Origin: Vicinamibacterales bacterium
Lineage (GTDB): Bacteria; Acidobacteriota; Vicinamibacteria; Vicinamibacterales; UBA823
DNA: 64,000 nucleotides
Reading direction: 5' to 3'
NCBI GenBank assembly: GCA_036012125.1
Contig: DASCOS010000004.1
Coordinates: 154,094-218,093, forward strand
Shown: in pieces, positions 1,352 to 60,549 of the stretch
Layout: the number at the start of each line of letters is the position of its first letter
Numbering within the stretch: position 1 is the first letter of the stretch
The notes under the pieces: generated by a model
What the model was told of the DNA's origin: nothing
The model's database searches: none
The model's input: only the letters and a program-made list of their open reading frames with translations
Made by a program: the position numbers and the translations under genes

Positions 1352-1387
1352 AGCCTAGAATTATAACTCGATCATAAGGAGGGTAAT

Positions 1388-1852
1388 GTGGCCGAGCTCA
1401 TTCACACCAGCCGAATACGCTTAGAGAAGATTAAGGGTTCACTTCGGCACGCGTACGTCGAAAACTTTAAGGCCCCAATCCGCTTCGGTATTCATGGCGG
1501 CATCAAGAGGTTCTACGGTATCGAACCTGACGAGGAGTTGCCAGCCACCCTCGATCATCTAATTGCGGCGGTTGGTGGTTGACTGCTTGGCACCTTGGCC
1601 GGCGCACTGGAAGTGCGCCAGATCCCGTCTGGTGACGGCTGTCTCACGGCCGCCGTGGAAGGCGACATTGAAGCGGTCGACAAGATCCTGCGTATAACCG
1701 AGATCCGAGTTCGTTACACACTCAAGATTCCCGCAGGCACCCGCGCAGCGGCTGATCGTGCGCTGACAACTCACGAGAGTAAATGCCCGGCCGCCGTAAG
1801 CGTCCGTAGCTGTATTAAGATTGTGATCACAGCTGATGTGACAGAAGAATAG
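1388..1852 (+). CDS. OsmC/Ohr-family peroxiredoxin, candidate selenoprotein (in-frame UGA at 1580-1582 read as Sec)
   Basis: Track ORFs 1388..1582 and 1595..1852 are in the same frame, separated only by a TGA plus 4 sense codons. AGGAGG (1377-1382) lies 5 nt before the GTG start; the downstream piece has no RBS of its own. The joined product reads ...LDHLIAAVGG-U-LLGTLAGALEV...THESKCPAAVSV..., which is the two-Cys OsmC/Ohr layout with U at the first conserved Cys. Confidence 0.7.
1601..1619 (+). promoter_or_regulatory. SECIS-like stem-loop downstream of the OsmC UGA
   Basis: GGCGCAC-UGGAA-GUGCGCC forms a perfect 7-bp stem with a 5-nt G-containing loop. The stem starts 18 nt after the UGA, and the loop starts about 25 nt after it. 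This falls within the spacing I recall for bacterial SECIS elements. Confidence 0.5.
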
Positions 1853-2808: not shown

Positions 2809-3933
2809 CTACACAATCTTCCCACGCGCCTCGACTGGGAGTGTCTCGATGACTGTCCATCCATCGACGAGTTGGACAGCATCCACTAGGTTCGATACAA
2901 CGCACGAATGATTCGGCAGAACGCGTACGCGGTCACCAGGTTCTAGGCCTGTAGCGCCATTCTGCACTTCTACGACCCCGTGTTCTTCCGAAAGCCGCGT
3001 GATCTGCAGTGAGTCGTCTGGTGTTGTCTCGTCGAGAGTGGAAAAAACGGCGCCGTAGCCCACCGGGCGGACCATTCCACGACCGGTGTCTGAGGTAAGT
3101 GTCTTGCTACCGCAGTCGAGAACGATGCGGTTGCTTGCCGGCTTACTGACCACGGTCGCCATCACGGAGAGTGCGCAATCGTCGAGTGAGGCAGAGCCAA
3201 TGGCAACCTGGCTACGATCGTAATAGACGTAGTTGCCTGGCCGAAGCTCCGTAAGGTCAGGCTCTGAAGCGCTTAGCATTGCTGTGGCGGTAGAGCCGAC
3301 GCTAATTTCGTCGATTTTGACTTCAGCCTGTCGTGCCCCGTCAGCCAGCGTTCGTAGCGTCTCGGCTTCGTCCTTCGCTACGGCGGCCAGTTCCTCTGCG
3401 GAACCTACGTCGTAACACTGGCCGGCGTGACTGAGGAGTCCACGGAGTCGTAGTCCTGGCAGGGTAGTTACGTGTGAAAGAAACGCGACGGCCTGAGTCA
3501 TCTCGGGAGCAATGCCACACCGCTGATACCCGACGTCAACCTTGACGAGGACGTCGAGTTGCCGGTCGTATGCACACATCGCCTCGGACCACTGTTCAGC
3601 CACTGTTGGATGATCGATTGCAAGTGAAAGTTTTACACGGTCCATCAGTGCCATGACACGTGTGGCACTGAACGGATTGATTGGATAGGGCAACCGGATG
3701 TCGGAGATACCCGCGTCGGCAAAAACTTCCGCCTCGCTGACTTTCGCGCAGCAGATCCCTGCCGCACCTTGTTCGAGTTGCCACTTTGCAATCCGAGGGC
3801 TCTTGTGGGTCTTGGTGTGCGGTCTAAGCGTCAGCCCCCCTGATGTTGCGACGGTTTGCATTCGCTTGATGTTGGCCATAAGCCGGTCCCGATCGATGAG
3901 GACTTGCGGTGTGGGGAGTTCGGTCAATTGCAT
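2809..3933 (-). CDS. D-threonine aldolase / D-serine dehydratase-like PLP enzyme (alanine racemase N-terminal fold)
   Basis: 374 aa. TPQVLIDRDRLMANIKRM...LRPHTKTHKSPRIAKWQLEQGAAGICCAKVSEAEVFA matches the PHxKTHK PLP-lysine block of the DTA/DSD1 family. Confidence 0.7.
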   Translation of the reverse strand: MQLTELPTPQVLIDRDRLMANIKRMQTVATSGGLTLRPHTKTHKSPRIAKWQLEQGAAGICCAKVSEAEVFADAGISDIRLPYPINPFSATRVMALMDRVKLSLAIDHPTVAEQWSEAMCAYDRQLDVLVKVDVGYQRCGIAPEMTQAVAFLSHVTTLPGLRLRGLLSHAGQCYDVGSAEELAAVAKDEAETLRTLADGARQAEVKIDEISVGSTATAMLSASEPDLTELRPGNYVYYDRSQVAIGSASLDDCALSVMATVVSKPASNRIVLDCGSKTLTSDTGRGMVRPVGYGAVFSTLDETTPDDSLQITRLSEEHGVVEVQNGATGLEPGDRVRVLPNHSCVVSNLVDAVQLVDGWTVIETLPVEARGKIV

Positions 3934-3964
3934 GATGGCAATTATCCATTTCAGTGAGTCAGTA

Positions 3965-5548
3965 TTAGTAGATCCTTACCCGGCTCTGCTCTTTCAGAAA
4001 CTGCTGGACGTAGTAGGGCCCACCAGCACCGCGACCAGACGAGCCACTTGCTTTCCAACCACCGAACGGATTGATACCTGGCCAGGCGCCAGTTGTCGCG
4101 CCAGCCTGCCGGTTGGCGTAAACGACGCCAGCTTGGATTTCGTCGAAGAAATTGGCTATTTCATCCTCATCGCTGCTAAAAATACCAGCCGTTAAACCGT
4201 ATTCGGTCTTGTTGGCGAGCCGTATTGCTTCGTCAAACGACGTTACTTTACCCACGACAGTGATCGGGACGAACAGCTCATCGGTGAATAATCGGTGGCC
4301 GTTCGGTAAGCCATCAATGACGGTCGGTTCGAGAAAGTAGCCATGTCGAAAGGGCTCTTCGGTAATTCGACGCCCCCCGGTGAGGACCCGCCCGCCGTCG
4401 CGCTTAGCCTCTTCAATTGCCCGTTCATAAGTCTTAACCGCCGCTTCGTTGATGACAGGTCCCATCCAGACATCGCGCTCAAGCGGGTTACCAATCTTGA
4501 TCTTTCTGGTTTTCTCCACAAGTTCCTCGACGAACCTATCGCAGACATCGGTCGCGACGTACACACGAGAGCATGCGGAACATTTCTGGCCTTGGGCACC
4601 GAACGCCGAGCGCCACACACCTTCGGTAGCTTTATCCAGGTCAGCTGATGACATGACTAGAGTGGGATTCTTGCCTCCCATCTCGGTGATGACCGGGCGC
4701 GGAGCTGGACGTCCGCCGTTCTCACGGGACAGCATCATTCCAACTTCTTTTGACCCGGTAAAAACGATGCCGTCGATGTGTGCATTTTCCGCAATTTCCT
4801 GGCCGACTGAGTTTCCAGGCCCGGTTACAACGTTGAATACACCTGGAGGTACGCCGGCCTCGGCGGCGATATCGTAAAGCCTCAAACCGAGCCTTGGCGT
4901 ATCGCTAGCTGGTTTCAGCACGACGGTGTTCCCCGCGACAAGTGCGCCGCCCGCCGGACCTGCGGCCAGCGCCATGGGAAAGTTAAACGGGGAGATGACT
5001 GCCCAGACCCCATGAGGACGCATGACACTGGTGTTCTCTTCATTCGGCTCTAGTTTGTCCATCGTCTGGCAAAAGCCGTCGTGTGCCTCTATCTGATCGC
5101 AATAGTAGGTCATGAAATCGGCGGCTTCTTCTATATCGCCTACGCATTCAAGGCGATTCTTGCCAGTCTCAAAACCCATCCAGGCTGCTAGTTCCCAACG
5201 CTGGGCTCGAATGCCGTCCCCAATCTTACGGACTATAGCCACCCGCTCTCTCCATGATCGCCCACCCCAATCAGCCGCGGCTACGCGAGCAGCACGAACC
5301 GCATCGCGCACATGGTCGGCGGTACCCTTTTGAAACCGCGCCAAAACAATCCGCGTATCGTTCGGGCTTAAGTCTTCAAACTGTTCGGCTGATTCGATGG
5401 CCTCACCGTCAATGTACATTGGATAAGTTTTGCCTAGCTGCGCTTTGACCTGTTCGATCGCCTCGTCAATTCCAAGGTGAAGCGCTTCCATCTGGTCGGC
5501 GCTCATCGTCGCGTAGGTGATTTTCATCTCGGGTTTACTACCGCTCAT
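3965..5548 (-). CDS. pruA: L-glutamate gamma-semialdehyde (1-pyrroline-5-carboxylate) dehydrogenase, aldehyde dehydrogenase superfamily
   Basis: 527 aa. ALDH motifs FTGSKEVG and EMGGKNP are present. FGAQGQKCSACSRVYV (GQKCSA) is the variant I associate with RocA/PruA-type P5C dehydrogenases. Confidence 0.7.
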   Translation of the reverse strand: MSGSKPEMKITYATMSADQMEALHLGIDEAIEQVKAQLGKTYPMYIDGEAIESAEQFEDLSPNDTRIVLARFQKGTADHVRDAVRAARVAAADWGGRSWRERVAIVRKIGDGIRAQRWELAAWMGFETGKNRLECVGDIEEAADFMTYYCDQIEAHDGFCQTMDKLEPNEENTSVMRPHGVWAVISPFNFPMALAAGPAGGALVAGNTVVLKPASDTPRLGLRLYDIAAEAGVPPGVFNVVTGPGNSVGQEIAENAHIDGIVFTGSKEVGMMLSRENGGRPAPRPVITEMGGKNPTLVMSSADLDKATEGVWRSAFGAQGQKCSACSRVYVATDVCDRFVEELVEKTRKIKIGNPLERDVWMGPVINEAAVKTYERAIEEAKRDGGRVLTGGRRITEEPFRHGYFLEPTVIDGLPNGHRLFTDELFVPITVVGKVTSFDEAIRLANKTEYGLTAGIFSSDEDEIANFFDEIQAGVVYANRQAGATTGAWPGINPFGGWKASGSSGRGAGGPYYVQQFLKEQSRVRIY

Positions 5549-5569
5549 CTTCAGTTTCTCCTCGTCCCG

Positions 5570-7180
5570 TTAGTTCTTCCGCAGGTCCTTTAGAATCTCG
5601 CGACTCGCATTCAATCCGCAAGCGCCGGTTACCCCGCCGCCAGGGTGGGTACCCGCGCCGCAAAGGTACAGGCCAGCAACCGGAGTCCGATATTGGGCCC
5701 AACCGAGTGCCGGCCGCATTGTGAAGAGTTGGTCCAAGGTATGCTCGCCATGAAAAATGTGGCCGCCGGTTAGACCGTAGACCGTTTCCAGATCGACAGG
5801 CGTCAAGATCTGCCGATGCAAAATCCGGTCTTCAAGTCCAGGCGCGTAAGCAGTGAGTACGCGAATAACCCTGTCGCCGAGACCATCGCGAGCTATGTGC
5901 CAGTTCTCGTCACGCAAATGGTACGGGGCGAATTGCGCGCAGATCGACATAACGTGTTGACCGTCAGGTGCCAAGGTCGAGTCATTAACCGTTGGGATCG
6001 TCACGTCGAGATATGGAGACTCAGAATAGCCTCCGTACTTGGAAGCATCGAATGCCCTCTCGAGGTACTCCACGCTAGGCCCAATGTGAATCCGCCCACC
6101 GAGCGCGTTTGTTCGCTCCGTAGAAGTTGCCGAAGCCAAGGCCGTGAATTCCGGAAGAGCGTCGAGTGCCAGGTTAATCTTAGCCATGGTGCCGGCCGCT
6201 CGATATCCCTTGATGGTGGCCACGAACGCAGGTTCAAGAGCGGCTGCTGAAATCAGTTTAAGAAAGGTTCGCTTGGGATCGGCGCCCGACACAACAGTGC
6301 GAGCAGTAATCACCGTCCCATCACTGAGGACCACGCCGGCAACTACACCCTGCTGGACATCGATGTGAGTTACCTCAGTGCCGGTCCTGATCTCGACGCC
6401 GACGGTCTGAGCAGCCTTCGCTAAGCCCTCGCTCAGTGAGCCGGGTCCACCTCTCGTGGTGGTCGCTGTAGGAAGCACGTGACCCCCAAGTGCCTGCTGC
6501 AGGAGGAAAGCCATACCCGAACCCGCCGATTTTGGACCCAGGTTCATGCCGTAAATGCCGCGGGCGGCCACGATGGCTTGCAGCGCTTCGGTTTCAAACC
6601 AGTCGGCGACTATGTCGGCCACTGGCATTGCTGACCACCTGAGTAGTCGGAACATGTTTTGTTTGCCGAGACCGCGAAACCGTCGGCCCGCTCTAATTAG
6701 CTGCCAGACGTCGCTAACCTTAGGATGCTCGGTTGATGGAGGTGTGCGCCACAGGAAATCACGTAGCACGCTACCGATTTCATCGAGGCATTCACTGAAG
6801 GCAAGGTACTGTTTGCTGTCGCGTTGTGAAAATGCACTGATTGAGTCTGCGGCGCGAACCGGGTCAGCATGAAGTAGAAGGGTGTGGTGGTCCGGTAGTG
6901 GCGCGAAAAGTCTCACCTCGGGTTCCGTGAAGCGAACGCCATGATGATGCAGGGCAAGGTCGTCGACCACTTTAGGATGCAGTGGGCCCACGGCGTGCGC
7001 CAAAGCAGGACATTTAAAACCTGGGTAGAGGTCTTCTGTTACCGCGGCACCACCGACTCCGTTTCGGCGCTCCAGCACGAGCGTTCGTACGCCTGCCCTA
7101 GCCAGATAAAACGCCGTAACGAGCGCGTTATGACCACCTCCTACAATAATTGCGTCGTACGACTTCACAGTGGAATTCAC
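5570..7180 (-). CDS. FAD-dependent oxidoreductase, PYROXD2/CrtI-like (COG1233 'phytoene dehydrogenase-related'), paralog 1
   Basis: 536 aa. N-terminal dinucleotide fold YDAIIVGGGHNALVTAFYLARAGVRTLVLERRNGVGGAAVTE. C-terminal LYLCGAGTHPGGGVTGACGLNASREIL. Confidence 0.75.
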   Translation of the reverse strand: MNSTVKSYDAIIVGGGHNALVTAFYLARAGVRTLVLERRNGVGGAAVTEDLYPGFKCPALAHAVGPLHPKVVDDLALHHHGVRFTEPEVRLFAPLPDHHTLLLHADPVRAADSISAFSQRDSKQYLAFSECLDEIGSVLRDFLWRTPPSTEHPKVSDVWQLIRAGRRFRGLGKQNMFRLLRWSAMPVADIVADWFETEALQAIVAARGIYGMNLGPKSAGSGMAFLLQQALGGHVLPTATTTRGGPGSLSEGLAKAAQTVGVEIRTGTEVTHIDVQQGVVAGVVLSDGTVITARTVVSGADPKRTFLKLISAAALEPAFVATIKGYRAAGTMAKINLALDALPEFTALASATSTERTNALGGRIHIGPSVEYLERAFDASKYGGYSESPYLDVTIPTVNDSTLAPDGQHVMSICAQFAPYHLRDENWHIARDGLGDRVIRVLTAYAPGLEDRILHRQILTPVDLETVYGLTGGHIFHGEHTLDQLFTMRPALGWAQYRTPVAGLYLCGAGTHPGGGVTGACGLNASREILKDLRKN

Positions 7181-8799
7181 CTACCTGGAAATCTCCATTC
7201 CTTGAGAATCCGCTGCGCCGCGTTGCGCCCTGAGGCACCCATGATGCCGCCGCCGGGATGCGTGGATGAGCCGCAGAGATACAGGCCTCGAACCGGTGTG
7301 CCATAACGAGCCCAACCCGGAACCGGTCGTAGGAAAAATAACTGCTCTAGGGTCAGCTCGCCTTGGAAAATATTGCCCTCAGTCAGGCCAAACTCACGCT
7401 CGAGATCAAGTGGAGTGATGACCTGTCGATGCAGGATGATGTCTTTGAGGTTCGGCGCGTAGTTAGCGAGCGTGTTAACCACACAGTCACCAAATTGCTC
7501 CCTTTGGTCATCCCAAGTGCCAGAACTTAAGTGGTATGGCGCGTACTGGACGAAGCAGGACAGGATGTGTTTGCCTGGAGGTGCCATTGACGGATCACTC
7601 AGAGTGGGAATGACCATGTCAATATAGGGATGCCGAGAATATTGTCCGTATTTGGCGTCGTCATAAGCACGTTCCATGTAGTCGACATCTGGCGAAATCG
7701 TAAGTCCTCCTCGCAAGTGCGGACCTGCGCCAGGCAGGCTCGTAAAATTGGGTAATGCGTCGAGTGCCAAATTGACCTTGCCGGACGAACCGCGCAGCTT
7801 GTAACGACTAACGTCTTCAACGAAGTCGTCCGGTAGCAGGTCTTTCCCGACCATCTTGAAGAATGTTAGGCGTGGGTCAACGCTCGATGCAACGATGTCA
7901 GCGCGTAATTCATCTCCGTTCTCTAACACTACCCCAGAGGCCTTTCCGCGCTTGACAAGTATCTGTGCGACTGGTGTTCCTGTACGGATCTCGGCTCCAG
8001 CTTCTCGAGCCGCGGCAGCGATCGCATTCGAGATTGCACCAGTGCCACCTCGAGGAAGGCCCCACGATCGAAAGGCACCGTCGATCTCTCCCATGTAATG
8101 ATGCAGGAGGACATAGGCCGTACCGGGTGAGCGCACACCGAGAAATGTCCCGGTTATTCCCGAGGCCGCCATTGTGGCCTTTAGGACGTCGGTTTCGAAC
8201 CATTGGTCTAGGAAGTCGACAGCGCTCATCGTCCCTAATTGCACCTGCATCTGCTGGAAGGAACGTGGAAGCTTTCGGAAACGGTTACCGATTGCCAGCA
8301 GTTGCAGAAGCGCTCGCGGGTCGCGTGACGTTGGATCGCGCGGCGCCATTTCAAGCATTGGCTTGACGAACCGACCCATGTCGACCATCGTCTTGCTGTA
8401 GTCCTCGTAAGCTTCGGCATCGCGTGGAGAATGACGAGCGATCTCCCTGTAGGTTTGGGCATGGTCATTGACGCGCCAGAGATAATCGCCGTTCGGCATT
8501 GGTGTGAACGTGCCATCGAGAGGAAGAATCTCGAGGCCGTGCCGCGCCAGTTCAAGTTCACGGATGATTTCGGGCCGAAGAAGTGAAACGACGTAGGAGC
8601 ACACTGAGAACCTAAAGCCTGGAAAGATTTCTTCAGTGACGGCCGCGCCACCCACTAATCGACGGCGCTCGAGAACTAGCGTTTTCTTTCCACTGCGCGC
8701 GAGGTAGGCTGCAGTGACTAAGCCATTGTGCCCACCACCGATGATGATTGCGTCGTATGTGCTTGCCATTGCTCGAGTCGACGGCTCGTGGGGAGCCAC
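7177..8799 (-). CDS. FAD-dependent oxidoreductase, PYROXD2/CrtI-like, paralog 2 (4-nt overlap with paralog 1)
   Basis: 540 aa. YDAIIIGGGHNGLVTAAYLARSGKKTLVLERRRLVGGAAVTEEIFPGFRFSVCSYVVSLLRPEI...LDQWFETDVLKATMAA...LYLCGSSTHPGGGIMGASGRNAAQ. As far as I can recall the human PYROXD2 sequence, this is collinear with it. Confidence 0.75.
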   Translation of the reverse strand: MAPHEPSTRAMASTYDAIIIGGGHNGLVTAAYLARSGKKTLVLERRRLVGGAAVTEEIFPGFRFSVCSYVVSLLRPEIIRELELARHGLEILPLDGTFTPMPNGDYLWRVNDHAQTYREIARHSPRDAEAYEDYSKTMVDMGRFVKPMLEMAPRDPTSRDPRALLQLLAIGNRFRKLPRSFQQMQVQLGTMSAVDFLDQWFETDVLKATMAASGITGTFLGVRSPGTAYVLLHHYMGEIDGAFRSWGLPRGGTGAISNAIAAAAREAGAEIRTGTPVAQILVKRGKASGVVLENGDELRADIVASSVDPRLTFFKMVGKDLLPDDFVEDVSRYKLRGSSGKVNLALDALPNFTSLPGAGPHLRGGLTISPDVDYMERAYDDAKYGQYSRHPYIDMVIPTLSDPSMAPPGKHILSCFVQYAPYHLSSGTWDDQREQFGDCVVNTLANYAPNLKDIILHRQVITPLDLEREFGLTEGNIFQGELTLEQLFFLRPVPGWARYGTPVRGLYLCGSSTHPGGGIMGASGRNAAQRILKEWRFPGR

Positions 8800-8830
8800 C
8801 GGAAGTTCGCATTGTAAGCGATTATAAAAC

Positions 8831-8860
8831 TTGTCGGAGTCGTTCGATGGTTTCTATAAT
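8831..8860 (+). promoter_or_regulatory. Candidate sigma70-type promoter for the GcvT-like gene; a mirror TATAAT on the minus strand at 8821-8826 could serve the flavoprotein operon
   Basis: TTGTCG (8831-8836), an 18-nt spacer, then TATAAT (8855-8860), 42 nt before the GTG at 8902. The minus strand reads TATAAT at 8821-8826, upstream of the start at 8799. This is a by-eye call in an AT-rich divergent spacer. Confidence 0.3.
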
Positions 8861-8901
8861 CCAAGGTTAACTGCTGCGCCTGTCGCAGAGTAGGAGTCGT
8901 T

Positions 8902-10116
8902 GTGCCTATCGGATCCGCGGTTCATGACCGCACTTTAGCGCTCTGCAAGAGCTTAAATTATCGCGAATGGTCTGGTTTTTTCTCCGTTAGCGCCTACGAA
9001 GCCCATCACGAACATGAGTATGCGGCCATCCGCACGTCTGCAGCGTTAATCGACATTTCACCCCTCTACAAGTACTTAATTACAGGCAAAGAGGCGACAG
9101 GGTTCGTCAATCGCTTAATCACCCGAGATGCAACAAAGCTTGCCGTAGGCCAGGTTGCGTATACCACTTGGTGCGACGAGGACGGTAAGGTCATTGATGA
9201 TGGGACGGTTTCGCGTCTCGGTGATGACCGGTATCGCTGGACTGCCGCCGATCCCAACCTCCGATGGTTTCAAGGGAACGCTGGCGGGTTCGACATGACT
9301 ATTCGCGACGTGTCGGAGGAGGTCGGTGCCCTCGCGTTACAGGGCCCGACATCAGCCGACGTGTTGAGGCAGGTTGCTGATGTGGACATCGACGCGCTGA
9401 AATACTTCCGCGTCACTAGTGGTGCTATTCGGAATGTGTCGGTCGATGTTTCCCGCACTGGATACACTGGCGACTTGGGCTACGAGATCTGGATGCCTTG
9501 GGAAGACGCAGGCAGGGTATGGGATGCACTGGTCGATCACTCGCAGGATTACCTCGTGCGGCCGGCCGGCATGCTAGCCTTGGACGTGGCTCGAATCGAG
9601 GCTGGTCTATTGCTGACCGAAGTCGATTTCTTTGGCAGCCGGAAGGCGCTCATTCCGTCACAGCGATATTCACCATTCGAGATGGGACTTGATAGGTTGG
9701 TAAGTTTAGACAAGTCTGAATTTGTTGGTCAGCCTGCACTTCGAAATGAGCGGCTTGCTGGACCACCACGAAGGATTGTGGGTCTCGAAATTGACTGGCC
9801 GGCGATTGAGGTGCTCTTTGAGGCAGTTGGACTTCCACCAGAGCCGCCAATAGTGGCATCTCGGGAGGCCGTCCCGGTCTACAGCGGCGGAGAACAGATT
9901 GGCAAGTTAACCTCGATGGTCTGGTCGCCTGTACTAAAAAAACTGATTGCCTTGGCGACAGTCCACCGTAACTACTCGGCTTCCGGCACCAAAATGCTGA
10001 TCGAATTCACCGTTCAGGCAGTTCGACACAAGGTGGAGGCAGTGGTGGTGCCGACGCCGTTCTTCAGTCCTTCGCGAAAAACTGCAACCCCACCGGCCAC
10101 CGCCGAATCGAGCTAG
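8902..10116 (+). CDS. GcvT-family aminomethyltransferase-like (folate-binding) protein
   Basis: 404 aa with a GTG start. HEHEYAAIRTSAALIDISPLYKYLITGKEATGFVNRLITRD...YTGDLGYEIWMPWEDA are typical GcvT/DmdA/sarcosine-oxidase-alpha-type blocks. Confidence 0.75.
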   Translation: MPIGSAVHDRTLALCKSLNYREWSGFFSVSAYEAHHEHEYAAIRTSAALIDISPLYKYLITGKEATGFVNRLITRDATKLAVGQVAYTTWCDEDGKVIDDGTVSRLGDDRYRWTAADPNLRWFQGNAGGFDMTIRDVSEEVGALALQGPTSADVLRQVADVDIDALKYFRVTSGAIRNVSVDVSRTGYTGDLGYEIWMPWEDAGRVWDALVDHSQDYLVRPAGMLALDVARIEAGLLLTEVDFFGSRKALIPSQRYSPFEMGLDRLVSLDKSEFVGQPALRNERLAGPPRRIVGLEIDWPAIEVLFEAVGLPPEPPIVASREAVPVYSGGEQIGKLTSMVWSPVLKKLIALATVHRNYSASGTKMLIEFTVQAVRHKVEAVVVPTPFFSPSRKTATPPATAESS

Positions 10117-15029: not shown

Positions 15030-16100
15030 TCAGTGTCCGAGCACACTCGTGATTGCGTCACGGTCGGGTGTTTGGAGGGGAAGGGTGACACCGTTTGCTT
15101 CAATCGTTACACCTGCCGCTGCTGGTCGCACTTCAGCGATTACGACTGCTGGAATGTTCTGCAACTCCAGTGCTGCGATAATTCGATCCGTATCGTTCCC
15201 AGGTGCACCGATCAGTAATGCACCCGACGCAATGAGCCGCATTGGATCCACTTTGAACGGGCGGCAAATAGCAGCGGTTTCTGGAAAAATCGGAACCTGG
15301 TCAGATCGAAGATGAAGACCGGTCGACGAGGCCGCAGCCAACTCGCAGAGTCCACCAATTAAACCGCCTTCCGTGGGGTCGTGCATGGCATGCACAGAAC
15401 CGACTTCAAGCGCGGTGCGAACAGCATCGACCACACTGATGCCGGGATCGAACAGAAACTGCTCAGCGCGGGCGAGCACATCGTCGGTTACCTGCCCACG
15501 AAGAACGTCACGCTTCTCGCGTGCCAGGAGGGCAGTGCCTTCGATGGCGACCCCTTGCGTGAGAATAATCTGATCGCCGACTTCTAGTCCGGTCTTTGCT
15601 ACGAGTCGGTCACGCGTGACTTCACCCAGCATCTGGCCAATTACGATCGGCCGATCGAGGCCAGTGGTAATCTCAGTGTGTCCACCGCAGACGGTTATTC
15701 CGAGGGATTGAGCAGTGTCGTGCACGTCCCTCATGATTCCGTCGATAAGTGTCTCGGTGGTGTTGTGTTCGGGCAAGAGCAGCACGACAGAAAGCCACCG
15801 CGGAGTGGCACCCATAACCGCGATATCGTTGGCGTTAACATGGACGGTATACCAGCCAATGCGATCCGTAGCAAAGGTGACCGGGTCGGTCGTGACAACG
15901 AGGCAACGGTCAGCAAATGTAATTACTGACGCGTCTTCACCCACCTTCGGTCCGATGATTACACGGGGATCCTCCCGGCGTAGCCCCGCAAGTAGAGTTC
16001 GGAGCTTGTCGGCGGGAAGTTTCCCAGGTTGAACGCGCGGAAATTGATTATCTGAGGGCACGGGGGCGCCGAGGGTAGCACGCGGTAGAAGACCGGTCAA
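15030..16100 (-). CDS. AIR-synthase-related (PurM/ThiL/HypE/SelD superfamily) protein of unknown specific function
   Basis: 356 aa. GEDASVITF...VTTDP...HVNANDIAVMGATPRWL...GGHTE...HDPTEGGL is the PurM-superfamily ATP-binding pattern. It has no SelD-type N-terminal Cys/Sec-Gly-x-Lys loop. Confidence 0.7.
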   Translation of the reverse strand: MTGLLPRATLGAPVPSDNQFPRVQPGKLPADKLRTLLAGLRREDPRVIIGPKVGEDASVITFADRCLVVTTDPVTFATDRIGWYTVHVNANDIAVMGATPRWLSVVLLLPEHNTTETLIDGIMRDVHDTAQSLGITVCGGHTEITTGLDRPIVIGQMLGEVTRDRLVAKTGLEVGDQIILTQGVAIEGTALLAREKRDVLRGQVTDDVLARAEQFLFDPGISVVDAVRTALEVGSVHAMHDPTEGGLIGGLCELAAASSTGLHLRSDQVPIFPETAAICRPFKVDPMRLIASGALLIGAPGNDTDRIIAALELQNIPAVVIAEVRPAAAGVTIEANGVTLPLQTPDRDAITSVLGH

Positions 16101-16183: not shown

Positions 16184-16780
16184 ATGGTTAAACGCACTGT
16201 GACATCGCGGTTGCCGACGCGGTATGGAGAGTTCTTACTGCATGCTTACCTCGAGGAGCGTGAGGGCGAGGCAGCACGTGTACACCTCGCGTTGGTGCGC
16301 GGGTCGACCGACTCGGAATCAAAACCGCTGCTCCGCATACACTCGGAATGTCTAACCGGCGACCTGCTCGCTTCGATACGGTGTGATTGTGGCGAGCAAC
16401 TCGATCAGGCGCTAGCGGCCATCGGAGAGGCTCCTGCGGGCATCCTAATCTACCTACGGCAAGAAGGCCGTGGAATCGGACTTCTGAACAAACTGCGCGC
16501 CTATAACCTGCAGGATGATGGACTCGATACGGTCGAAGCTAATATCCATCTTGGCTTCGAACCTGATGAACGAGATTATTCAGTCGCTGTAGACATACTC
16601 GAGGACCTCGGTGTAATGGCTATTCGGTTGCTCACGAACAATCCGAATAAGGTTGCAGCTTTCGAGCGTTCGCGTGTGCGGGTTATTGAGCGGGTGCCGC
16701 TGGTGGTGAGCGAAACAGCGGAGAATGCAAACTATCTTGAAACAAAGCGGCGGCGACTCGGCCACATGCGTCGCGGGTGA
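16184..16780 (+). CDS. ribA: GTP cyclohydrolase II
   Basis: 198 aa. RIHSECLTGDLLASIRCDCGEQL...YLRQEGRGIGLLNKLRAYNLQDDGLDTVEAN...IRLLTNNPNK. Confidence 0.9.
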   Translation: MVKRTVTSRLPTRYGEFLLHAYLEEREGEAARVHLALVRGSTDSESKPLLRIHSECLTGDLLASIRCDCGEQLDQALAAIGEAPAGILIYLRQEGRGIGLLNKLRAYNLQDDGLDTVEANIHLGFEPDERDYSVAVDILEDLGVMAIRLLTNNPNKVAAFERSRVRVIERVPLVVSETAENANYLETKRRRLGHMRRG

Positions 16781-22653: not shown

Positions 22654-22986
22654 TTATGGCGTTCGTGGTCGAGATCCGCGTAATGTGGCGATAGTTGCTC
22701 CGAGGTGGCTTTCCGGTGCGTCTCTAAAGGTATCGACCAGAGGGTGCCGTTCCAAAGTCGCCTGGACAGCGCCTCGTTGTTTGCCTGTACCACGGCCGTG
22801 AATAAGCCTAATTTCCTCAAAACCGGCCTTATACGATTCCCGAACATACTCGTTTACGACAGCGCAGATGTCTCGTGGCTCGAACGGATGGAGGTCGAGA
22901 GTGCCCTCGATCGGCACAGGATGCGCCAGTTTGAGGGCTCCGGGGCGGTCGATGAAATATCTGTCTCCGGAGGTGTTACGTCGCAT
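22654..22986 (-). CDS. Smr-domain protein
   Basis: 110 aa. LDLHPF...EIRLIHGRGTGKQRGAV fits the Smr/MutS2 C-terminal domain pattern. Confidence 0.65.
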   Translation of the reverse strand: MRRNTSGDRYFIDRPGALKLAHPVPIEGTLDLHPFEPRDICAVVNEYVRESYKAGFEEIRLIHGRGTGKQRGAVQATLERHPLVDTFRDAPESHLGATIATLRGSRPRTP

Positions 22987-23362
22987 CAGACCGTTCGCTG
23001 GACGGGTCGTAGATAGTGGTGACCGACGTTGTGATCCCCCCGCGCACCGAGAAATTTCCGACCACCGTCATCCGTCTTGGGTGGCAGGCCGCAACGAGAT
23101 CGTCGAGGATCTGATTGGTCGCCGCTTCGTAAAAAATCCCGCGGTTCCGGTACTCGATGAGATAGTATTTCAGCGCTTTGAGTTCAACACACAGCTTGTC
23201 CGGCACGTAGGTGATCCTGATTTCGCCAAAGTCTGGTAGCCCTGTCTTGGGACATATTGACGTAAACTCTGGACAGTGAATGGCGATTTCGTAATTGCGC
23301 TCAGAGCGTGGGTTAGGAAATGTATCGATCGTGGCAGCTGGCATGTCAAGAGATTTTAGCAT
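22976..23362 (-). CDS. queF: NADPH-dependent 7-cyano-7-deazaguanine (preQ0) reductase
   Basis: 128 aa. The CPEFTSICPKTGLPDFGEIRITYVPDKLCVELKALKYYL motif is diagnostic for type-I QueF. Confidence 0.9.
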   Translation of the reverse strand: MLKSLDMPAATIDTFPNPRSERNYEIAIHCPEFTSICPKTGLPDFGEIRITYVPDKLCVELKALKYYLIEYRNRGIFYEAATNQILDDLVAACHPRRMTVVGNFSVRGGITTSVTTIYDPSSERSDAT

Positions 23363-23521
23363 TGTCGTGCCAGATGGTCCGTGATGGCAAAATCATGTCA
23401 TCATTGACACTGAGAGAACCACAGGCTAGGATGCCACGGTTTTTGGTTTTGGCTGCGACAGTCGCTCGCGCGCGCGACGGTCGTTGGGTGCTCTTCGCGC
23501 GCTTGAGTCAGGGGGACGCCG

Positions 23522-23824
23522 ATGGCCGATGCCCGAAGGATGGGTAAGTCTGAGCTCTTCTCGCATTTTGCGGAAAAGTTCGAGATCAAGCGAGCGCAGG
23601 CTCGTGAGTTTTTTGATGAGTTAAATTCACTCGCTGAGTCTGAACTAAAGCGAGCGAATGAGTTTGTGCTACCTGGGATGTGCAAGTTGGTGGTGCAGAA
23701 CCGGAAGGCCCGACAGGGACGTAATCCCGCCACGGGCGAGACCATCCAGATTCCCGCGAAGACCGTTGTTAAGGCTCGCATTGCGAAGCAGTTGAAAGAC
23801 TCCGTTCTGCCGGGAAAGAAATAA
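23522..23824 (+). CDS. hup: HU/IHF-family nucleoid-associated DNA-binding protein
   Basis: 100 aa. RKARQGRNPATGETIQIPAKTVVKARIAKQLKD is the beta-arm signature. Confidence 0.85.
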   Translation: MADARRMGKSELFSHFAEKFEIKRAQAREFFDELNSLAESELKRANEFVLPGMCKLVVQNRKARQGRNPATGETIQIPAKTVVKARIAKQLKDSVLPGKK

Positions 23825-40456: not shown

Positions 40457-42097
40457 CTAGGACCGGAGCCGCTTTTTCTCTGAAGCCCGTTCAGCTTGGA
40501 GACGTTCGAGGTCCACGGCCGAATGATCAGCGAATCGCATCGCGGCCGCGATAGCCCGGTGACCTGCCTTTTCGGCAATTAGTCGATGCATTGCTTGACA
40601 GACACGTCGATACGCTGGATGTCCCTGCGGGGCACTCCTGAGCTCAATCACGTGCATGGCTTCTCGCGCGTTCATGTGCATGTAAAAGCGGATACGGTAT
40701 GCCATGGCGACTGCATACGGTGCCACCGCGCCGAGGGTCGCCTTCTGCAGAGCTTCGTGTAGCTCAACCGATGACTCCATGACCTGCCGCCAGTCGGCAA
40801 GGGCACCGGCTTCTTCGATTGCTGCTGGTTCGTTGAAGCCGTGGTCGGTTGTCAGATCCTGCCATTCAATGCTGAGCAAACGATGTCTTTGGAGATCGCG
40901 AAATGCGCCGTAGTCCGATAGCACATCGAAACGGTAACCAGTGCGCTCAAATGCGCGGCCCGGCTTATGGCGGCGGTTTGTCCTGGCGCCGATGTAGGCT
41001 TTTAAGATTGACGCCCGCTCGCTGGCCGACATCTGCCTCGCCATGGCGAGTAGCTGAGAATCTGGCAGGTTTGACACCGCATAGAGTGCGGCAGCGACCA
41101 CTTTGACCTCGCCGTCTGGATCAAAATCGACCAACGACACCTCATCTCGTAGTTGGGGGTCGATGTCAGCCAATACGGTCATTGATGTTTGTTTTAGGTC
41201 AGTCTGCGTAGTGCTTAGATAGTCGCTCCACAGAACGCCTCGGTTGGGCAGGTCAACACGTGTCAGGAACGCAGGGATCACCTTGCGCAGTTCAATTAGC
41301 ATCATCTCCGCATATCGCTGCATCTCGGTCAGTGGATGTGCGCGCATTTGTAGAAGCAATCTTTCATATGCCTGCCCAGACCCGAAAATGCCCACGTTGG
41401 ATTGCGTTGCCGCCGGTAAGAGGCCACGTAATGTATCAAGGGCCTTCGCACGGATCGCTGCCCGGTAGACACCGTCCGAATCCTCTGGATCCTTCGGATG
41501 CTTGGCCTTGTAGTAATCCTGCATCGGTTCGATCCACCGGTTATAAATTTCGAAAGCGCGATCGAGGGTCCGGACGTACTGAGCGCGCAGTGTCGTCCCG
41601 TTAAGTTCTTCCGGGATTAAGTATTTCCAGTGGCCTTGCGGGCGGTCGGTGTAGGGTATGTAGCGTGTTGATTGTTCGAGATACGCTGCGAGCCTACCCC
41701 GCTCCAGCACCTTCGTTAGGAGGTTTGAGGCACCCTCACAGGCGATGTGCGCCCCGCCCAACTGAGCGACCGAGTCATCGCCGTACTCGTGGAAAACGCG
41801 TGTGTAGAGTCGCTCGGCACGCTCGACGCCAACATCTGGCGCCTGACGGTCGGCTCCGGAAACTTTGTCGGTGAATTCATCGAGAAACAGTCGACGCAGC
41901 GATTTTGCGGATCGCGAGTATCGGGCAAAGAGTGCTCCCTTGACGACGTCCGGTAAATTTGTCAGCGCGAACACTGGTCCCTCGAGATTCGTGAAATACG
42001 GTTCGAGGAGCCGTCGTTCCTCTGGGGTGAATGATTCGGCAGATGGGCGTTCGTCGGGCACGCCGTATAATAGTCGGGCGGTGCGAGGTTCCGTCAA
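40457..42097 (-). CDS. Long (tandem-domain) ThyX/Thy1-like flavin-dependent thymidylate synthase homolog
   Basis: 546 aa. The C-terminal half has FRDLQRHRLLS (RHRxxS). The N-terminal half has only the degenerate GALFARYSRS. Confidence 0.6.
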   Translation of the reverse strand: MTEPRTARLLYGVPDERPSAESFTPEERRLLEPYFTNLEGPVFALTNLPDVVKGALFARYSRSAKSLRRLFLDEFTDKVSGADRQAPDVGVERAERLYTRVFHEYGDDSVAQLGGAHIACEGASNLLTKVLERGRLAAYLEQSTRYIPYTDRPQGHWKYLIPEELNGTTLRAQYVRTLDRAFEIYNRWIEPMQDYYKAKHPKDPEDSDGVYRAAIRAKALDTLRGLLPAATQSNVGIFGSGQAYERLLLQMRAHPLTEMQRYAEMMLIELRKVIPAFLTRVDLPNRGVLWSDYLSTTQTDLKQTSMTVLADIDPQLRDEVSLVDFDPDGEVKVVAAALYAVSNLPDSQLLAMARQMSASERASILKAYIGARTNRRHKPGRAFERTGYRFDVLSDYGAFRDLQRHRLLSIEWQDLTTDHGFNEPAAIEEAGALADWRQVMESSVELHEALQKATLGAVAPYAVAMAYRIRFYMHMNAREAMHVIELRSAPQGHPAYRRVCQAMHRLIAEKAGHRAIAAAMRFADHSAVDLERLQAERASEKKRLRS

Positions 42098-47987: not shown

Positions 47988-48104
47988 ATAACACCTTGAT
48001 GATATTGGATATCCGACCCCAACCCGTCGGGCGGTTTCACTCAAGGCATCGTGTCTGCCAGTATAATCCAGAACTCTGGTGCCTGTCGGCACCCGAGTAT
48101 TGCT

Positions 48105-59580: not shown

Positions 59581-60549
59581 ATGGTGTTAAAGAGAATCGC
59601 GAAGCTTACGTTCTTGGCAACGGTAGTTTTGAGCTTGGCTTGTGGGTCCCCAGCGCCGAAAAGTTCGCCGATGGAGATCTCGGAGTTGGTAAACCAGATG
59701 CGTGACATGGCTTGGGCCGAAGAGGTTGATGCGGCGCAGACGCTTCTACAGCAGCAACGTGGGCACCATGACCAGACATCACCTGAGTGGCTGGTCGCGG
59801 CATCCTGGCTCGGTCGCGGCGCGAGTTTTGCCCAGCGCTGGGATGTAGCCGAGCAATATGCGCGTGAGGCGTACGATGGTAGCTCTGCACTTCTCAACGA
59901 TCGAGAAGTGGACTTGGAACGGCAACTTCCAACTGCACTGGGTGCTGGAATTGAAGTGCTCGGACGCGTTCAAGATGCGCGTGGTGACCGAAGCGGAGCG
60001 GTGGAGTTCTTACGTGCGCAACATGAGACTTATATGGGAACCTCAATTGAGACCCGTCTTCAGAAGAACATCTTGCTTCTTAGTCTGGAAGGACTGCCTT
60101 TCCCGGTGATTGATGTCGAGCATTACCTCGGTGAACGAGTGTTGTCGCCTGATAGCTTGAAGGGAAAGGTTGTTGTGGCATATTTCTGGGCCCACTGGTG
60201 TCCGGACTGCAAACAGCAATTGCCGATCTTGGATCAGTTGTACGAGCAATACGGTGAGCGCGATCTCGCTATCATCGGCCCGACGCAACTGTATGGCTAT
60301 ATAGCCCGTGGACAAAACGCTACGCCGGCGGAAGAACTCGAGTATTTGCGAGGCGCCTATCAGGAGCAATTTCCGGTCCCGGAATGGATGAGTGTGCCCG
60401 TGAGTCAGCAGAGCTTTCTCGACTTTGGCGTCAGCACAACGCCGACACTAGTCATCATCGACCGTGAAGGGGTCGTTGAGCTATACAACCCGGGGACACT
60501 TTCGTACGAGGAGCTATCGGCACAGGTAGAGCGCCTGCTAGCCACGTAG
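59581..60549 (+). CDS. TlpA-like thiol:disulfide oxidoreductase lipoprotein with a helical N-terminal domain
   Basis: Lipobox LSLACGS. Redoxin domain VVAYFWAHWCPDCKQQLP (WCxxC) and TTPTLVIID (cis-Pro). Confidence 0.75.
   Translation: MVLKRIAKLTFLATVVLSLACGSPAPKSSPMEISELVNQMRDMAWAEEVDAAQTLLQQQRGHHDQTSPEWLVAASWLGRGASFAQRWDVAEQYAREAYDGSSALLNDREVDLERQLPTALGAGIEVLGRVQDARGDRSGAVEFLRAQHETYMGTSIETRLQKNILLLSLEGLPFPVIDVEHYLGERVLSPDSLKGKVVVAYFWAHWCPDCKQQLPILDQLYEQYGERDLAIIGPTQLYGYIARGQNATPAEELEYLRGAYQEQFPVPEWMSVPVSQQSFLDFGVSTTPTLVIIDREGVVELYNPGTLSYEELSAQVERLLAT

What the first reader, a model, noticed from the sequence alone, without database searches (positions are those of the whole stretch)
1388..1852. 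OsmC/Ohr-family peroxidase with an in-frame UGA at the conserved catalytic Cys and a SECIS-like hairpin: candidate selenoprotein
The ORF track splits this locus into 1388..1582 and 1595..1852, but both pieces share one frame.
- They are separated only by the TGA at 1580-1582 and four sense codons.
- Only the first piece has a start context: AGGAGG lies 5 nt before the GTG.
- The joined 154-residue product has the OsmC/Ohr two-Cys layout, ...IAAVGG-[UGA]-LLGTLAGAL... and ...THESKCPAAVSV...
- The UGA occupies the position of the first conserved, peroxide-reactive Cys.
- Eighteen nt downstream is a perfect hairpin, GGCGCAC-UGGAA-GUGCGCC (1601-1619), with G residues in the loop. This geometry is expected for a bacterial SECIS.

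TGA is an ordinary stop elsewhere in the window (for example 2251-2253, 2784-2786 and 16778-16780), so global reassignment is unlikely.
Basis: partly seen in the sequence, partly recalled or inferred. Interest (0 to 1): 0.75.

Follow-up and report, generated by a model that had tools for sequence, protein, structure and literature searches.

The report
Selenocysteine-containing OsmC-like redox protein gene
This is a genuine selenoprotein gene from a marine Acidobacteriota bacterium: a small OsmC-type antioxidant protein whose reactive cysteine is replaced by selenocysteine, encoded by a recoded UGA "stop"; the type has been known since 2005, but this branch is mis-annotated in every database entry examined.

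Summary
Window 1388-1852 (+) is one 154-codon reading frame with an in-frame TGA at 1580-1582. The product is an OsmC-family protein (Pfam PF02566, E = 7e-11). The TGA falls on the first conserved Cys of OsmC/Ohr, and the second conserved Cys is kept at residue 133.

Of 81 related loci from independent assemblies (48-99% identical), 80 carry TGA at this column. More distant homologs carry TGC or TGT. Both halves of the gene show the same purifying-selection signature.

The hairpin at 1601-1619 meets all four published bacterial SECIS constraints. Its stem covaries across Sec forms (G-C, A-U and G-U at one pair, no mismatches) and is degraded in 11 of 12 Cys forms, even where the encoded peptide is identical.

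TGA is also the commonest ordinary stop in the window (18 of 38 genes), so the codon is not reassigned.

Still unproven are the Sec machinery (absent from these 64 kb), selenium incorporation and peroxidase activity.

OsmC-like selenoproteins have been catalogued since 2005. The catalogued reference is only 27% identical and has a different motif, so this is a new, divergent member of a known kind.

The parts
1377..1382 (+). Shine-Dalgarno sequence AGGAGG, 5 nt upstream of the GTG start
   Evidence: Read directly from the sequence.
1388..1852 (+). Complete selenoprotein gene: 154 codons plus a TAG stop, encoding an OsmC-like protein with Sec at residue 65 and the second conserved Cys at residue 133.
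   Evidence: Single-frame translation. Pfam OsmC PF02566 at 42.8 bits, above the 27.5-bit cut-off. Orthologs are colinear over residues 1-154. The same codon-position divergence pattern holds upstream and downstream of the TGA.
1580..1582 (+). In-frame TGA, read as selenocysteine (U65), at the position of the first conserved (peroxidatic) Cys of OsmC/Ohr.
   Evidence: 80 of 81 related loci have TGA here and 1 has TGC. More distant homologs have TGC or TGT. The column aligns with the Cys of AAHA[AG]CF in OsmC (1ukk, 1qwi, 1nye) and of AGYSACF in Ohr (6d9n). The next base is C in 38 of 44 unique sequences and A in the other 6.
1601..1619 (+). Bacterial SECIS element: stem 1601-1608 paired with 1612-1619 (7 G/C-rich pairs plus a U-A closing pair) and apical loop GGA at 1609-1611. 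There are 25-26 nt between the UGA and the loop.
   Evidence: MFE -14.5 kcal/mol, z = -3.9. 94.9% of cells are paired, against 20-61% in the slid controls; pair 27-35 shows GC 27, AU 13, GU 4 and no mismatch; pair 26-36 shows CG 39, UA 4. Sec forms average 7.4 contiguous bp and Cys forms 2.75, p = 4.5e-7. All four bSECIS constraints quoted in PMC13188914 are met.
1784..1786 (+). TGC codon for Cys133 (motif KCPAA), the presumed resolving cysteine.
   Evidence: Aligns with the second Cys of OsmC and Ohr (GCPVS / VCPYS). Conserved in 42 of 43 unique Sec-form orthologs.

Best explanation
Window 1388-1852 encodes one 154-residue OsmC-superfamily redox protein of a marine Acidobacteriota bacterium, in which UGA at codon 65 is translated as selenocysteine.

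Proposed mechanism: when the ribosome reaches UGA-65, the hairpin 18 nt downstream (1601-1619, GG-containing apical loop) acts as a bacterial SECIS. It recruits SelB-GTP-Sec-tRNA(Sec), which outcompetes RF2, and translation continues to the TAG at 1850.

In the folded protein, Sec65 sits at the N-terminus of the long helix, where OsmC and Ohr carry their peroxide-reactive Cys. It would attack a hydroperoxide (or another oxidised substrate) to give a selenenic acid. Cys133 would resolve this into an intramolecular selenenylsulfide, which a thiol reductant (lipoyl or thioredoxin type) would then reduce.

Shown here: the single frame, the family and fold, the Sec/Cys column, conservation of the UGA, and SECIS covariation specific to the Sec forms.

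Inferred: SelB dependence, actual selenium insertion, the peroxidase chemistry and the identity of the reductant.
For: - One frame with a good ribosome-binding site only at the first piece.
- Pfam OsmC hit above threshold.
- The AlphaFold model of the 64%-identical Cys ortholog (pLDDT 96) matches OsmC-like, Ohr and OsmC crystal structures over its whole length, with TM 0.7-0.83.
- U65 and C133 align with the two catalytic Cys of solved OsmC and Ohr.
- The 'W' in database homologs is really TGA in the DNA.
- 80 of 81 related loci from many independent assemblies carry TGA, at 48-99% protein identity.
- Cys forms exist in Acidobacteriota genomes and in metagenomes.
- Third-position divergence is 0.54 downstream and 0.51 upstream of the TGA, against 0.18-0.28 at positions 1 and 2. 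Most orthologs have no restart codon after the TGA.
- The hairpin covaries and is specific to Sec forms. Cys forms that encode the same GALEAR peptide use codons that break it; for example L085 has GGAGCCTTGGAAGCACGC.
- All published bSECIS constraints are met.
- TGA ends 18 of 38 window genes.
- Acidobacteriota include known Sec users.
- OsmC-like selenoproteins with Sec at the same site are an accepted family.
Against: - No selA, selB, selD or tRNA-Sec lies in the 64-kb window.
- The only AIRS-domain protein (15033-16100) scores below the SelD cut-off (85.8 against 125 bits) and lacks the N-terminal Cys/Sec-Lys motif.
- There is no Rfam SECIS match, although bacterial SECIS elements are poorly covered there.
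- Much of the stem's sequence conservation is confounded by the conserved peptide GALE[VA]R. One Cys form (L094, TGT) keeps the full hairpin.
- Peroxidase activity is unproven for this subfamily, and conservation of the catalytic Arg and Glu of Ohr/OsmC was not established.
- No conserved partner gene was found.
Confidence: 0.88

Rival explanations
1. The UGA is read through, but not as selenocysteine. A suppressor tRNA would insert Cys, Ser or another residue at codon 65. Candidates are an acidobacterial tRNA-Sec-like 'allo-tRNA' or a selC*-type tRNA-Cys delivered by SelB.
For: Mukai et al. 2016 (PMC5389517) report allo-tRNAs in Acidobacteria that may act as nonsense suppressors, and selC* tRNA-Cys in deltaproteobacteria that mimics tRNA-Sec. 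No tRNA-Sec or Sec-synthesis genes could be shown for this organism.
Against: A conserved, covarying hairpin that meets the SECIS constraints at the right spacing is what SelB-dependent Sec insertion predicts, and a general suppressor would not need it. TGA is the main ordinary stop in the window, so a general opal suppressor would be costly. The Sec/Cys pair at a redox-active Cys is the classical selenoprotein signature (PMC1088965). selC* was not reported from Acidobacteria.
Confidence: 0.05
2. The locus is a pseudogene or carries a sequencing or assembly error. A Cys codon (TGC/TGT) would have mutated or been misread to TGA, so only a 64-aa fragment, or nothing functional, is made.
For: A single-base change converts TGC or TGT to TGA. 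Gene callers and NCBI annotate members as truncated 64-90-aa fragments.
Against: TGA is found in 80 of 81 related loci from independent projects (JGI, ENA, NCBI WGS, Logan) down to 48% identity. The downstream 89 codons show the same purifying-selection pattern as the upstream part, and the second Cys is kept in 42 of 43. The hairpin is maintained by compensatory substitutions.
Confidence: 0.01
3. There are two separate small genes, or TGA is reassigned. Either the two pieces (1388-1582 and 1595-1852) are translated independently and assemble as a split OsmC, or the organism reads TGA as Trp or Gly (genetic code 4 or 25).
For: Some database entries translate the codon as W (P0001, P0002, P0004, P0005, P0011). 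A TTG lies at 1595.
Against: There is no ribosome-binding site before 1595. 33 of 43 orthologs have no start codon in the 7 codons after the TGA. 18 of 38 Pfam-supported window genes end in TGA with full-length domain coverage. Trp is never encoded by TGG at this column in any locus fetched, and true non-TGA homologs have Cys.
Confidence: 0.01
4. It is a real selenoprotein but not a hydroperoxide reductase. The Sec65/Cys133 pair would serve another redox role, such as a disulfide/selenenylsulfide relay, sulfur or selenium trafficking, or sensing, as suspected for some YhfA/COG1765-type OsmC-like proteins.
For: The nearest structures are uncharacterised structural-genomics OsmC-like proteins (2onf, 1ml8, 2egt), ahead of Ohr and OsmC. 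Sequence similarity to characterised OsmC is weak (E = 1.8e-5 with a profile). No NCBIfam equivalog matches. Conservation of the catalytic Arg and Glu was not demonstrated.
Against: Both catalytic-Cys positions are kept. Sec replacing the nucleophilic Cys is typical of peroxide-reducing enzymes (Prx, GPx, AhpD-like) listed in the selenoproteome surveys. The structurally close 1lql and 6mjn entries are described as OsmC or hydroperoxide-resistance proteins.
Confidence: 0.3

Closest known systems
OsmC-like selenoprotein family of the Sargasso Sea and GOS selenoproteomes (Zhang, Fomenko & Gladyshev 2005, PMC1088965; reference sequences AACY01145085 and MCS5647933.1; COG1765/YhfA type, motif UxxT)
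   Same: It belongs to the same superfamily (PF02566). Sec is at the same column (the first conserved Cys) and a Cys is kept at the second conserved position. A SECIS hairpin with a G-containing apical loop lies just downstream of the UGA. It occurs in marine bacteria and has Cys homologs. hhalign gives probability 92%, E = 7.5e-7, with U and the second Cys in register.
   Different: Identity is only 27% over 85 residues. The motif is U-L-[LT]-G-T (Thr at +4) rather than U-L-L-T (Thr at +3), and the second Cys sits in KCPAA rather than [QK]GCFAE. The SECIS sequence is different. The lineage is Acidobacteriota, from both soil and ocean. This clade is not the reference in the curated lists seen.
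Cys-based OsmC and Ohr organic hydroperoxide reductases (E. coli OsmC 1qwi/1nye, T. thermophilus OsmC 1ukk, Ohr 6d9n/1n2f/4xx2)
   Same: Same fold (TM about 0.65-0.75) and the same two-Cys layout, with the nucleophile at the start of the long helix and the resolving Cys in a CP motif.
   Different: The nucleophile is Sec rather than Cys. Sequence identity is 10-19%. Structurally the protein is nearer the uncharacterised OsmC-like subfamily (2onf, 1lql, 1ml8, 2egt). Activity and reductant are unknown.
Cys-containing orthologs of the same clade in Acidobacteriota genomes (Bryobacterales, Korobacteraceae, Terriglobia MAGs; L083-L090) and in metagenomes (P0003, P0006, P0009 and others)
   Same: They are 40-64% identical over the full length, with the same motifs (GTLAGALE, VEGDIE, CP).
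   Different: They have TGC or TGT instead of TGA. The downstream hairpin is degraded, at 2-3 contiguous bp in 11 of 12.
E. coli fdhF-type bacterial SECIS and the bSECIS consensus model (as summarised in PMC13188914)
   Same: It lies within the coding region immediately after the UGA. The apical loop is small and follows the N1-G-[G/U]-N-N2 pattern (here U-G-G-A-A). The upper stem is 7-8 bp, the spacing is 25-26 nt, and the MFE is -14.5 kcal/mol. All values are inside the published ranges.
   Different: It has no bulged U and no sequence similarity to the E. coli element. Binding to SelB was not tested.

Membership tests
Bacterial selenoprotein gene (SelB/SECIS-dependent UGA recoding) | In-frame UGA aligned with a conserved Cys in at least two homologs (Sec/Cys pair) | tested here: met
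   12 distinct Cys forms (TGC/TGT) have the Cys at the same column. This criterion is stated in PMC1088965.
Bacterial selenoprotein gene (SelB/SECIS-dependent UGA recoding) | [quoted passage not shown] | tested here: met
   80 of 81 related loci carry TGA, giving 56 unique Sec-form sequences. The codon-position divergence pattern is the same upstream and downstream.
Bacterial selenoprotein gene (SelB/SECIS-dependent UGA recoding) | bSECIS consensus: 3-9 nt apical loop, 4-16 bp upper stem, G in the first two loop positions, 16-37 nt between UGA and loop, MFE <= -7.5 kcal/mol | tested here: met
   The loop is GGA (or UGGAA), the stem is 7-8 bp, the spacing is 25-26 nt and the MFE is -14.5 kcal/mol. 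The constraints are quoted from PMC13188914. Covariation is shown and Sec-form specificity.
Bacterial selenoprotein gene (SelB/SECIS-dependent UGA recoding) | selA, selB, selC (tRNA-Sec) and selD present in the same genome | not testable with these tools
   None is present in the 64-kb window. The rest of the genome is not available. The phylum is known to include Sec users.
Bacterial selenoprotein gene (SelB/SECIS-dependent UGA recoding) | Selenium physically incorporated at the UGA position | not testable with these tools
   This needs 75Se labelling or mass spectrometry.
OsmC/Ohr superfamily (Pfam PF02566) | Profile match above the curated threshold | tested here: met
   42.8 bits against a 27.5-bit cut-off, E = 7.3e-11, residues 52-147.
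OsmC/Ohr superfamily (Pfam PF02566) | OsmC fold over the whole chain | tested here: met
   The AlphaFold2 model of Cys ortholog P0003 (64% identical) has pLDDT 96.2. Foldseek top hits are 2onf, 6mjn, 1lql, 1ml8 and 2egt, followed by Ohr and OsmC, with TM 0.65-0.83.
OsmC/Ohr superfamily (Pfam PF02566) | Two conserved redox Cys (peroxidatic at the helix N-terminus, resolving in a C-P motif) | tested here: met
   U65 aligns with the Cys of AAHA[AG]CF and AGYSACF. C133 aligns with GCPVS and VCPYS.
OsmC/Ohr superfamily (Pfam PF02566) | Catalytic Arg and Glu that activate the peroxidatic Cys in Ohr and OsmC | not tested
   The profile alignment to PDB sequences covers only residues 58-148. Near-invariant polar residues in this clade are H6, S8, E25, H36 and D56, but their equivalence to the Ohr Arg and Glu was not established.
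OsmC/Ohr superfamily (Pfam PF02566) | Thiol-dependent hydroperoxide reductase activity | not testable with these tools
   This needs a biochemical assay.
Published 'OsmC-like protein' selenoprotein family (COG1765, UxxT; AACY01145085, MCS5647933.1) | Sec at the first conserved Cys of the OsmC domain | tested here: met
   hhalign places U and the second Cys in the same columns.
Published 'OsmC-like protein' selenoprotein family (COG1765, UxxT; AACY01145085, MCS5647933.1) | UxxT motif | tested here: not met
   The window and all its orthologs have U-[LM]-x-G-T, with Thr at +4 and Gly at +3. The reference sequences have U-L-L-T.
Published 'OsmC-like protein' selenoprotein family (COG1765, UxxT; AACY01145085, MCS5647933.1) | Close sequence relationship to the reference sequences | tested here: inconclusive
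   BLASTP gives 27% identity over 85 aa, E = 3e-6 pairwise. hhalign gives probability 92%. This makes it a homologous but clearly separate subfamily.

The most novel reading that the evidence does not exclude
The most novel reading not excluded is that this is a distinct, previously uncatalogued clade of OsmC-superfamily selenoproteins. Sec, not Cys, would be the overwhelmingly dominant state across aerobic soil and marine Acidobacteriota, since 80 of the 81 closest loci carry TGA. All entries of this clade examined here are mis-annotated, either as fragments or as Trp-containing proteins. The more radical variant is that the UGA is decoded by an acidobacterial tRNA-Sec-like allo-tRNA rather than by canonical tRNA-Sec.
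Probability: 0.35. Interest if true: 0.45.

Novelty: new member of a known kind. Interest (0 to 1): 0.35.

Why it matters
The locus is a clean, well-supported example of UGA-to-selenocysteine recoding in a phylum, Acidobacteriota, whose selenium biology is little studied.

The clade is widespread in soil and ocean metagenomes. Among the closest relatives retrieved it is almost always in the Sec form. All the public entries examined are wrong: they are split into 64-aa and 85-90-aa fragments, truncated (for example NCBI MEM7233702.1), or translated with Trp.

Recognising the clade would correct those annotations. It would add a divergent reference sequence and SECIS to selenoprotein search libraries. 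It would also offer a natural Sec/Cys series, including an apparently recent Sec-to-Cys convert that still carries the hairpin, for studying why Sec is retained at peroxidatic sites in aerobic bacteria.

It does not change any concept. OsmC-like selenoproteins and this style of SECIS are established.

Tried and rejected
- **Sec machinery in the window.** tRNA and Rfam scans found only tRNA-Glu. Pfam scans of 40 ORFs found no SelA, SelB or SelD.
- **AIRS/AIRS_C protein at 15033-16100.** I considered it as SelD and rejected that. It scores 85.8 bits against a 125-bit cut-off, HypE scores higher, and it has no Cys/Sec-Lys motif.
- **Other selenoprotein genes in the window.** 94 TGA read-through candidates were listed. 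None apart from this locus lies outside or in frame with an annotated gene in a convincing way.
- **Rfam SECIS families.** A sensitive scan of 1540-1680 gave only chance hits.
- **Genome-collection search.** As a result, no named genome carrying the Sec form was obtained.
- **Conserved gene neighbourhood.** Only lineage-specific synteny was found (apt, an RlmB-like gene), with no functional partner.
- **DNA for P0003.** It was unavailable.
- **Mb-scale contigs carrying the split gene.** Loci L091-L093 came without organism names.
- **Rejected readings.** Pseudogene, sequencing error, split gene, code 4/25 and transcription terminator. The hairpin is followed by AGAUCCC, not a U-run.
Full report
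**1. The observation**

Window 1388-1852 (+) translates in a single frame as 64 residues, TGA (1580-1582), 89 residues, then TAG. The start is GTG at 1388, preceded by AGGAGG at 1377-1382 with a 5-nt spacer. The mechanical ORF list splits the locus into 1388..1582 and 1595..1852. The second piece starts at a TTG with no ribosome-binding site.

The hairpin GGCGCAC-UGGAA-GUGCGCC is at 1601-1619, 18 nt after the TGA. ViennaRNA folds it as an 8-bp stem (the eighth pair is U1608-A1612) with a GGA loop. The 25-nt hairpin is unusually stable: -14.5 kcal/mol, z = -3.9, with 0 of 200 shuffles folding as well. The wider 66-nt region is not exceptional in this G+C-rich context (z = -1.16).

**2. What the protein is**

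With U replaced by C, the 154-residue product matches Pfam OsmC (PF02566) at 42.8 bits against a cut-off of 27.5. A profile of the family searched against PDB sequences aligns the U column with the Cys of AAHA[AG]CF in E. coli and T. thermophilus OsmC and of AGYSACF in Ohr. It aligns C133 (KCPAA) with the second Cys of those proteins (GCPVS, VCPYS). From established knowledge of OsmC and Ohr, the first Cys is the peroxide-reactive one and the second is the resolving one.

An AlphaFold2 model of the closest natural Cys ortholog (P0003, 64% identical) is very confident, with pLDDT 96.2. It superposes over its full length on OsmC-superfamily crystal structures. The best matches are OsmC-like entries: 2onf (Ta0195), 6mjn, 1lql (MPN625), 1ml8 (YhfA) and 2egt. 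Canonical Ohr and OsmC follow. The N-terminal 50 residues that Pfam does not cover are simply the N-terminal strands of the fold.

**3. Is the TGA real and conserved?**

The protein search returned three kinds of homolog:
- full-length proteins with C at the column;
- full-length proteins with W at the column;
- N-terminal fragments ending ...AAVGG and C-terminal fragments starting just after it.

The 'W' of P0001 is a TGA in the DNA, so it is an artefact of gene calling with genetic code 4 or 25. A near-identical copy from an independent ENA assembly (L002) has the same TGA and the same neighbours.

A scan of metagenome contigs returned 80 related loci from many projects, at 48-99% protein identity. 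Counting the window and L001, 81 of 82 sequences have TGA at this codon and one (L040) has TGC. The split 64-aa plus 89-aa annotation recurs on contigs up to 2.1 Mb.

Among 43 unique, gaplessly alignable Sec forms:
- divergence at codon positions 1, 2 and 3 is 0.26, 0.18 and 0.51 upstream of the TGA, and 0.28, 0.23 and 0.54 downstream;
- the synonymous fraction of codon differences is 0.45 on both sides;
- Cys133 is kept in 42 of 43;
- 33 of 43 have no possible start codon in the seven codons after the TGA.

This excludes a sequencing error, a pseudogene and a two-gene split.

**4. Is TGA reassigned?**

No. Of 38 window genes with Pfam support, 18 end in TGA, 10 in TAG and 10 in TAA (annotations).

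**5. The SECIS**

The 2026 review PMC13188914 lists four bSECIS consensus constraints. The element meets all of them.

| Constraint | Published range | This element |
|---|---|---|
| Apical loop | 3-9 nt | GGA, or U-GGA-A |
| Upper stem | 4-16 bp | 7-8 bp |
| UGA-to-loop spacing | 16-37 nt | 25-26 nt |
| MFE | <= -7.5 kcal/mol | -14.5 kcal/mol |

Across 44 unique Sec-form sequences, 94.9% of stem cells form standard pairs, against 20-61% when the partners are slid by 1-3 columns. Pair 27-35 is G-C in 27, A-U in 13 and G-U in 4, with no mismatch. Pair 26-36 is C-G in 39 and U-A in 4. None of 500 shuffles reached the observed covariation score. Some of these compensations link a non-synonymous change (Val GUG to Ala GCG, or Ala GCN to Val GUG) to a synonymous choice in the partner Ala codon.

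Because the stem encodes the conserved peptide GALE[VA]R, the fairest control is the set of Cys forms.
- In 12 distinct Cys forms, the stem averages 2.75 contiguous pairs, against 7.36 in 56 Sec forms (Mann-Whitney p = 4.5e-7). The local MFE is -9.6 against -14.05 kcal/mol (p = 8e-7).
- All 31 unique Sec-form sequences encoding GALEAR use GG[CT] GCG CUG GA[AG] GCG CG[CT].
- Three of the four Cys forms encoding the same peptide use codons that break the stem, for example GGA GCC UUG GAA GCA CGC in L085.
- One Cys form (L094, TGT) keeps all 8 pairs, as expected for a recent one-base Sec-to-Cys conversion.
- The base after the UGA is C in 38 of 44 and A in 6 of 44. From general knowledge, UGA-C is a weak termination context.
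- Rfam has no match. That is uninformative for short bacterial SECIS elements.

**6. Organism and machinery**

The window's SdhA/FrdA-like protein is 99% identical to NCBI proteins named 'MAG... [Acidobacteria bacterium]' and also occurs in Tara Oceans data. The closest OsmC loci come from many different metagenome projects. The Cys forms found in genomes are mostly from Acidobacteriota (Bryobacterales, Korobacteraceae, Terriglobia).

The window holds no tRNA-Sec, SelA, SelB or SelD. The AIRS-domain protein at 15033-16100 is not a confident SelD. A 64-kb window cannot decide this point either way.

Acidobacteria and Acidobacteriota are documented Sec users. The 2006 survey lists 3 selenoprotein families and 4 selenoproteins in the phylum (PMC1794560). 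Occallatibacter riparius has 3 selenoprotein genes (PMC12013277). Mukai et al. 2016 note tRNA-Sec-like allo-tRNAs in Acidobacteria that may suppress stop codons. I keep this as a low-probability rival, because a general suppressor would not explain a conserved SECIS and would clash with the heavy use of TGA as a stop.

**7. Mechanism**

- Shown: one gene; the OsmC fold; UGA at the nucleophile position; the resolving Cys retained; a Sec-form-specific, covarying SECIS.
- Inferred: SelB-GTP-Sec-tRNA(Sec) is recruited by the hairpin while the ribosome pauses at UGA-65. Sec65 is then oxidised by a hydroperoxide to a selenenic acid, which Cys133 resolves to a selenenylsulfide, which a thiol reductant reduces.
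- Weak points: no conserved neighbouring gene points to a reductant. The window gene sits between a divergent BLH-type phosphatase gene and pterin-4a-carbinolamine dehydratase and MerR genes. The peroxidase assignment is plausible but unproven for this subfamily.

**8. Comparison with what is known**

OsmC-like proteins have been on the list of prokaryotic selenoprotein families since the Sargasso Sea analysis: 3 sequences, COG1765, motif UxxT. The GOS study found 5, and recent reviews list the family.

The published sequences are AACY01145085 and MCS5647933.1. They read ...G[IG]GF-U-LLT[QN]L...[QK]GCFAE.... They share only 27% identity over 85 residues with the window protein, although a profile comparison puts U and the second Cys in register (probability 92%). 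The window clade has U-L-[LT]-G-T, with Thr one position later, and KCPAA.

It is therefore the same kind of selenoprotein, in the same superfamily with the same Sec site and the same style of SECIS. It is a separate, divergent subfamily that the curated reference lists seen here do not represent, and every member examined in the searched collection is mis-annotated.

**9. Verdict**

Novelty: a new member (a divergent clade) of a known kind. Interest is moderate to low for a specialist (0.35). The result is a solid annotation correction and a useful natural Sec/Cys series, not a new principle.

Noticed in passing
L094:301-771 (JGI Ga0137358_10147189): This Cys-form ortholog uses TGT at the Sec column yet keeps the complete 8-of-8-bp SECIS-like hairpin (GGTGCGCTGGAAGCGCGTT), unlike the other 11 Cys forms. 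It looks like a recent single-base Sec (TGA) to Cys (TGT) conversion.
   Followed up: partly
Database entries P0001, P0002, P0004, P0005, P0011 (W at the Sec column); P0029, P0038, P0047, P0050 (N-terminal fragments); P0034-P0061 (C-terminal fragments, including NCBI MEM7233702.1): The public protein collections examined mis-annotate this clade. Members appear as Trp-containing proteins (gene calling with code 4 or 25), as 64-aa plus 85-90-aa split genes, or as truncated 'OsmC family protein' entries.
   Followed up: yes
window 15033-16100 (-): An AIR-synthase-related protein (AIRS + AIRS_C, 356 aa) scores below every NCBIfam equivalog cut-off: HypE 110 bits against 251, ThiL 87 against 184, SelD 86 against 125. 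It is an unassigned member of the PurM/HypE/ThiL/SelD superfamily and is not evidence for Sec machinery.
   Followed up: partly
window 40460-42097 (-): A ThyX (Thy1, flavin-dependent thymidylate synthase) homolog is 546 aa long with two matched Thy1 stretches. That is roughly double the usual length and suggests an internally duplicated or fused ThyX.
   Followed up: no
window 48051-50486 (+): An 812-aa protein fuses a serine beta-lactamase/PBP-like domain (residues 56-396) with an exo-beta-N-acetylmuramidase NamZ (N- and C-terminal domains, residues 459-811). This suggests a peptidoglycan-recycling fusion enzyme.
   Followed up: no
window 2812-10113: A cluster of amine and amino-acid catabolism genes. 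It holds a D-serine-dehydratase-like protein (Ala_racemase_N + D-ser_dehydrat), an aldehyde dehydrogenase, two tandem flavin amine oxidase paralogs (5573-7180 and 7180-8799), and a GcvT-like aminomethyltransferase on the opposite strand.
   Followed up: no
window 59581-60546 (+): A 322-aa protein has a C-terminal thioredoxin-fold, AhpC/TSA-like domain (residues about 186-314). It is a Cys-based redox protein in the same window, with no in-frame TGA.
   Followed up: no
window 1583 and alignment A4 column 4: The nucleotide right after the Sec-UGA is C in 38 of 44 unique orthologous sequences and A in the other 6, never G or U. From general knowledge, UGA-C is a poor RF2 termination context, which would favour recoding.
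   Followed up: partly
window 22654-23824: An ORF-poor gap holds small genes: a QueF-like ORF at 22976-23362 (-), an Smr-like ORF at 22654-22986 (-), and an HU/IHF-like DNA-binding protein at 23522-23824 (+). These were assigned by eye from the translations only. None is split by a TGA.
   Followed up: no
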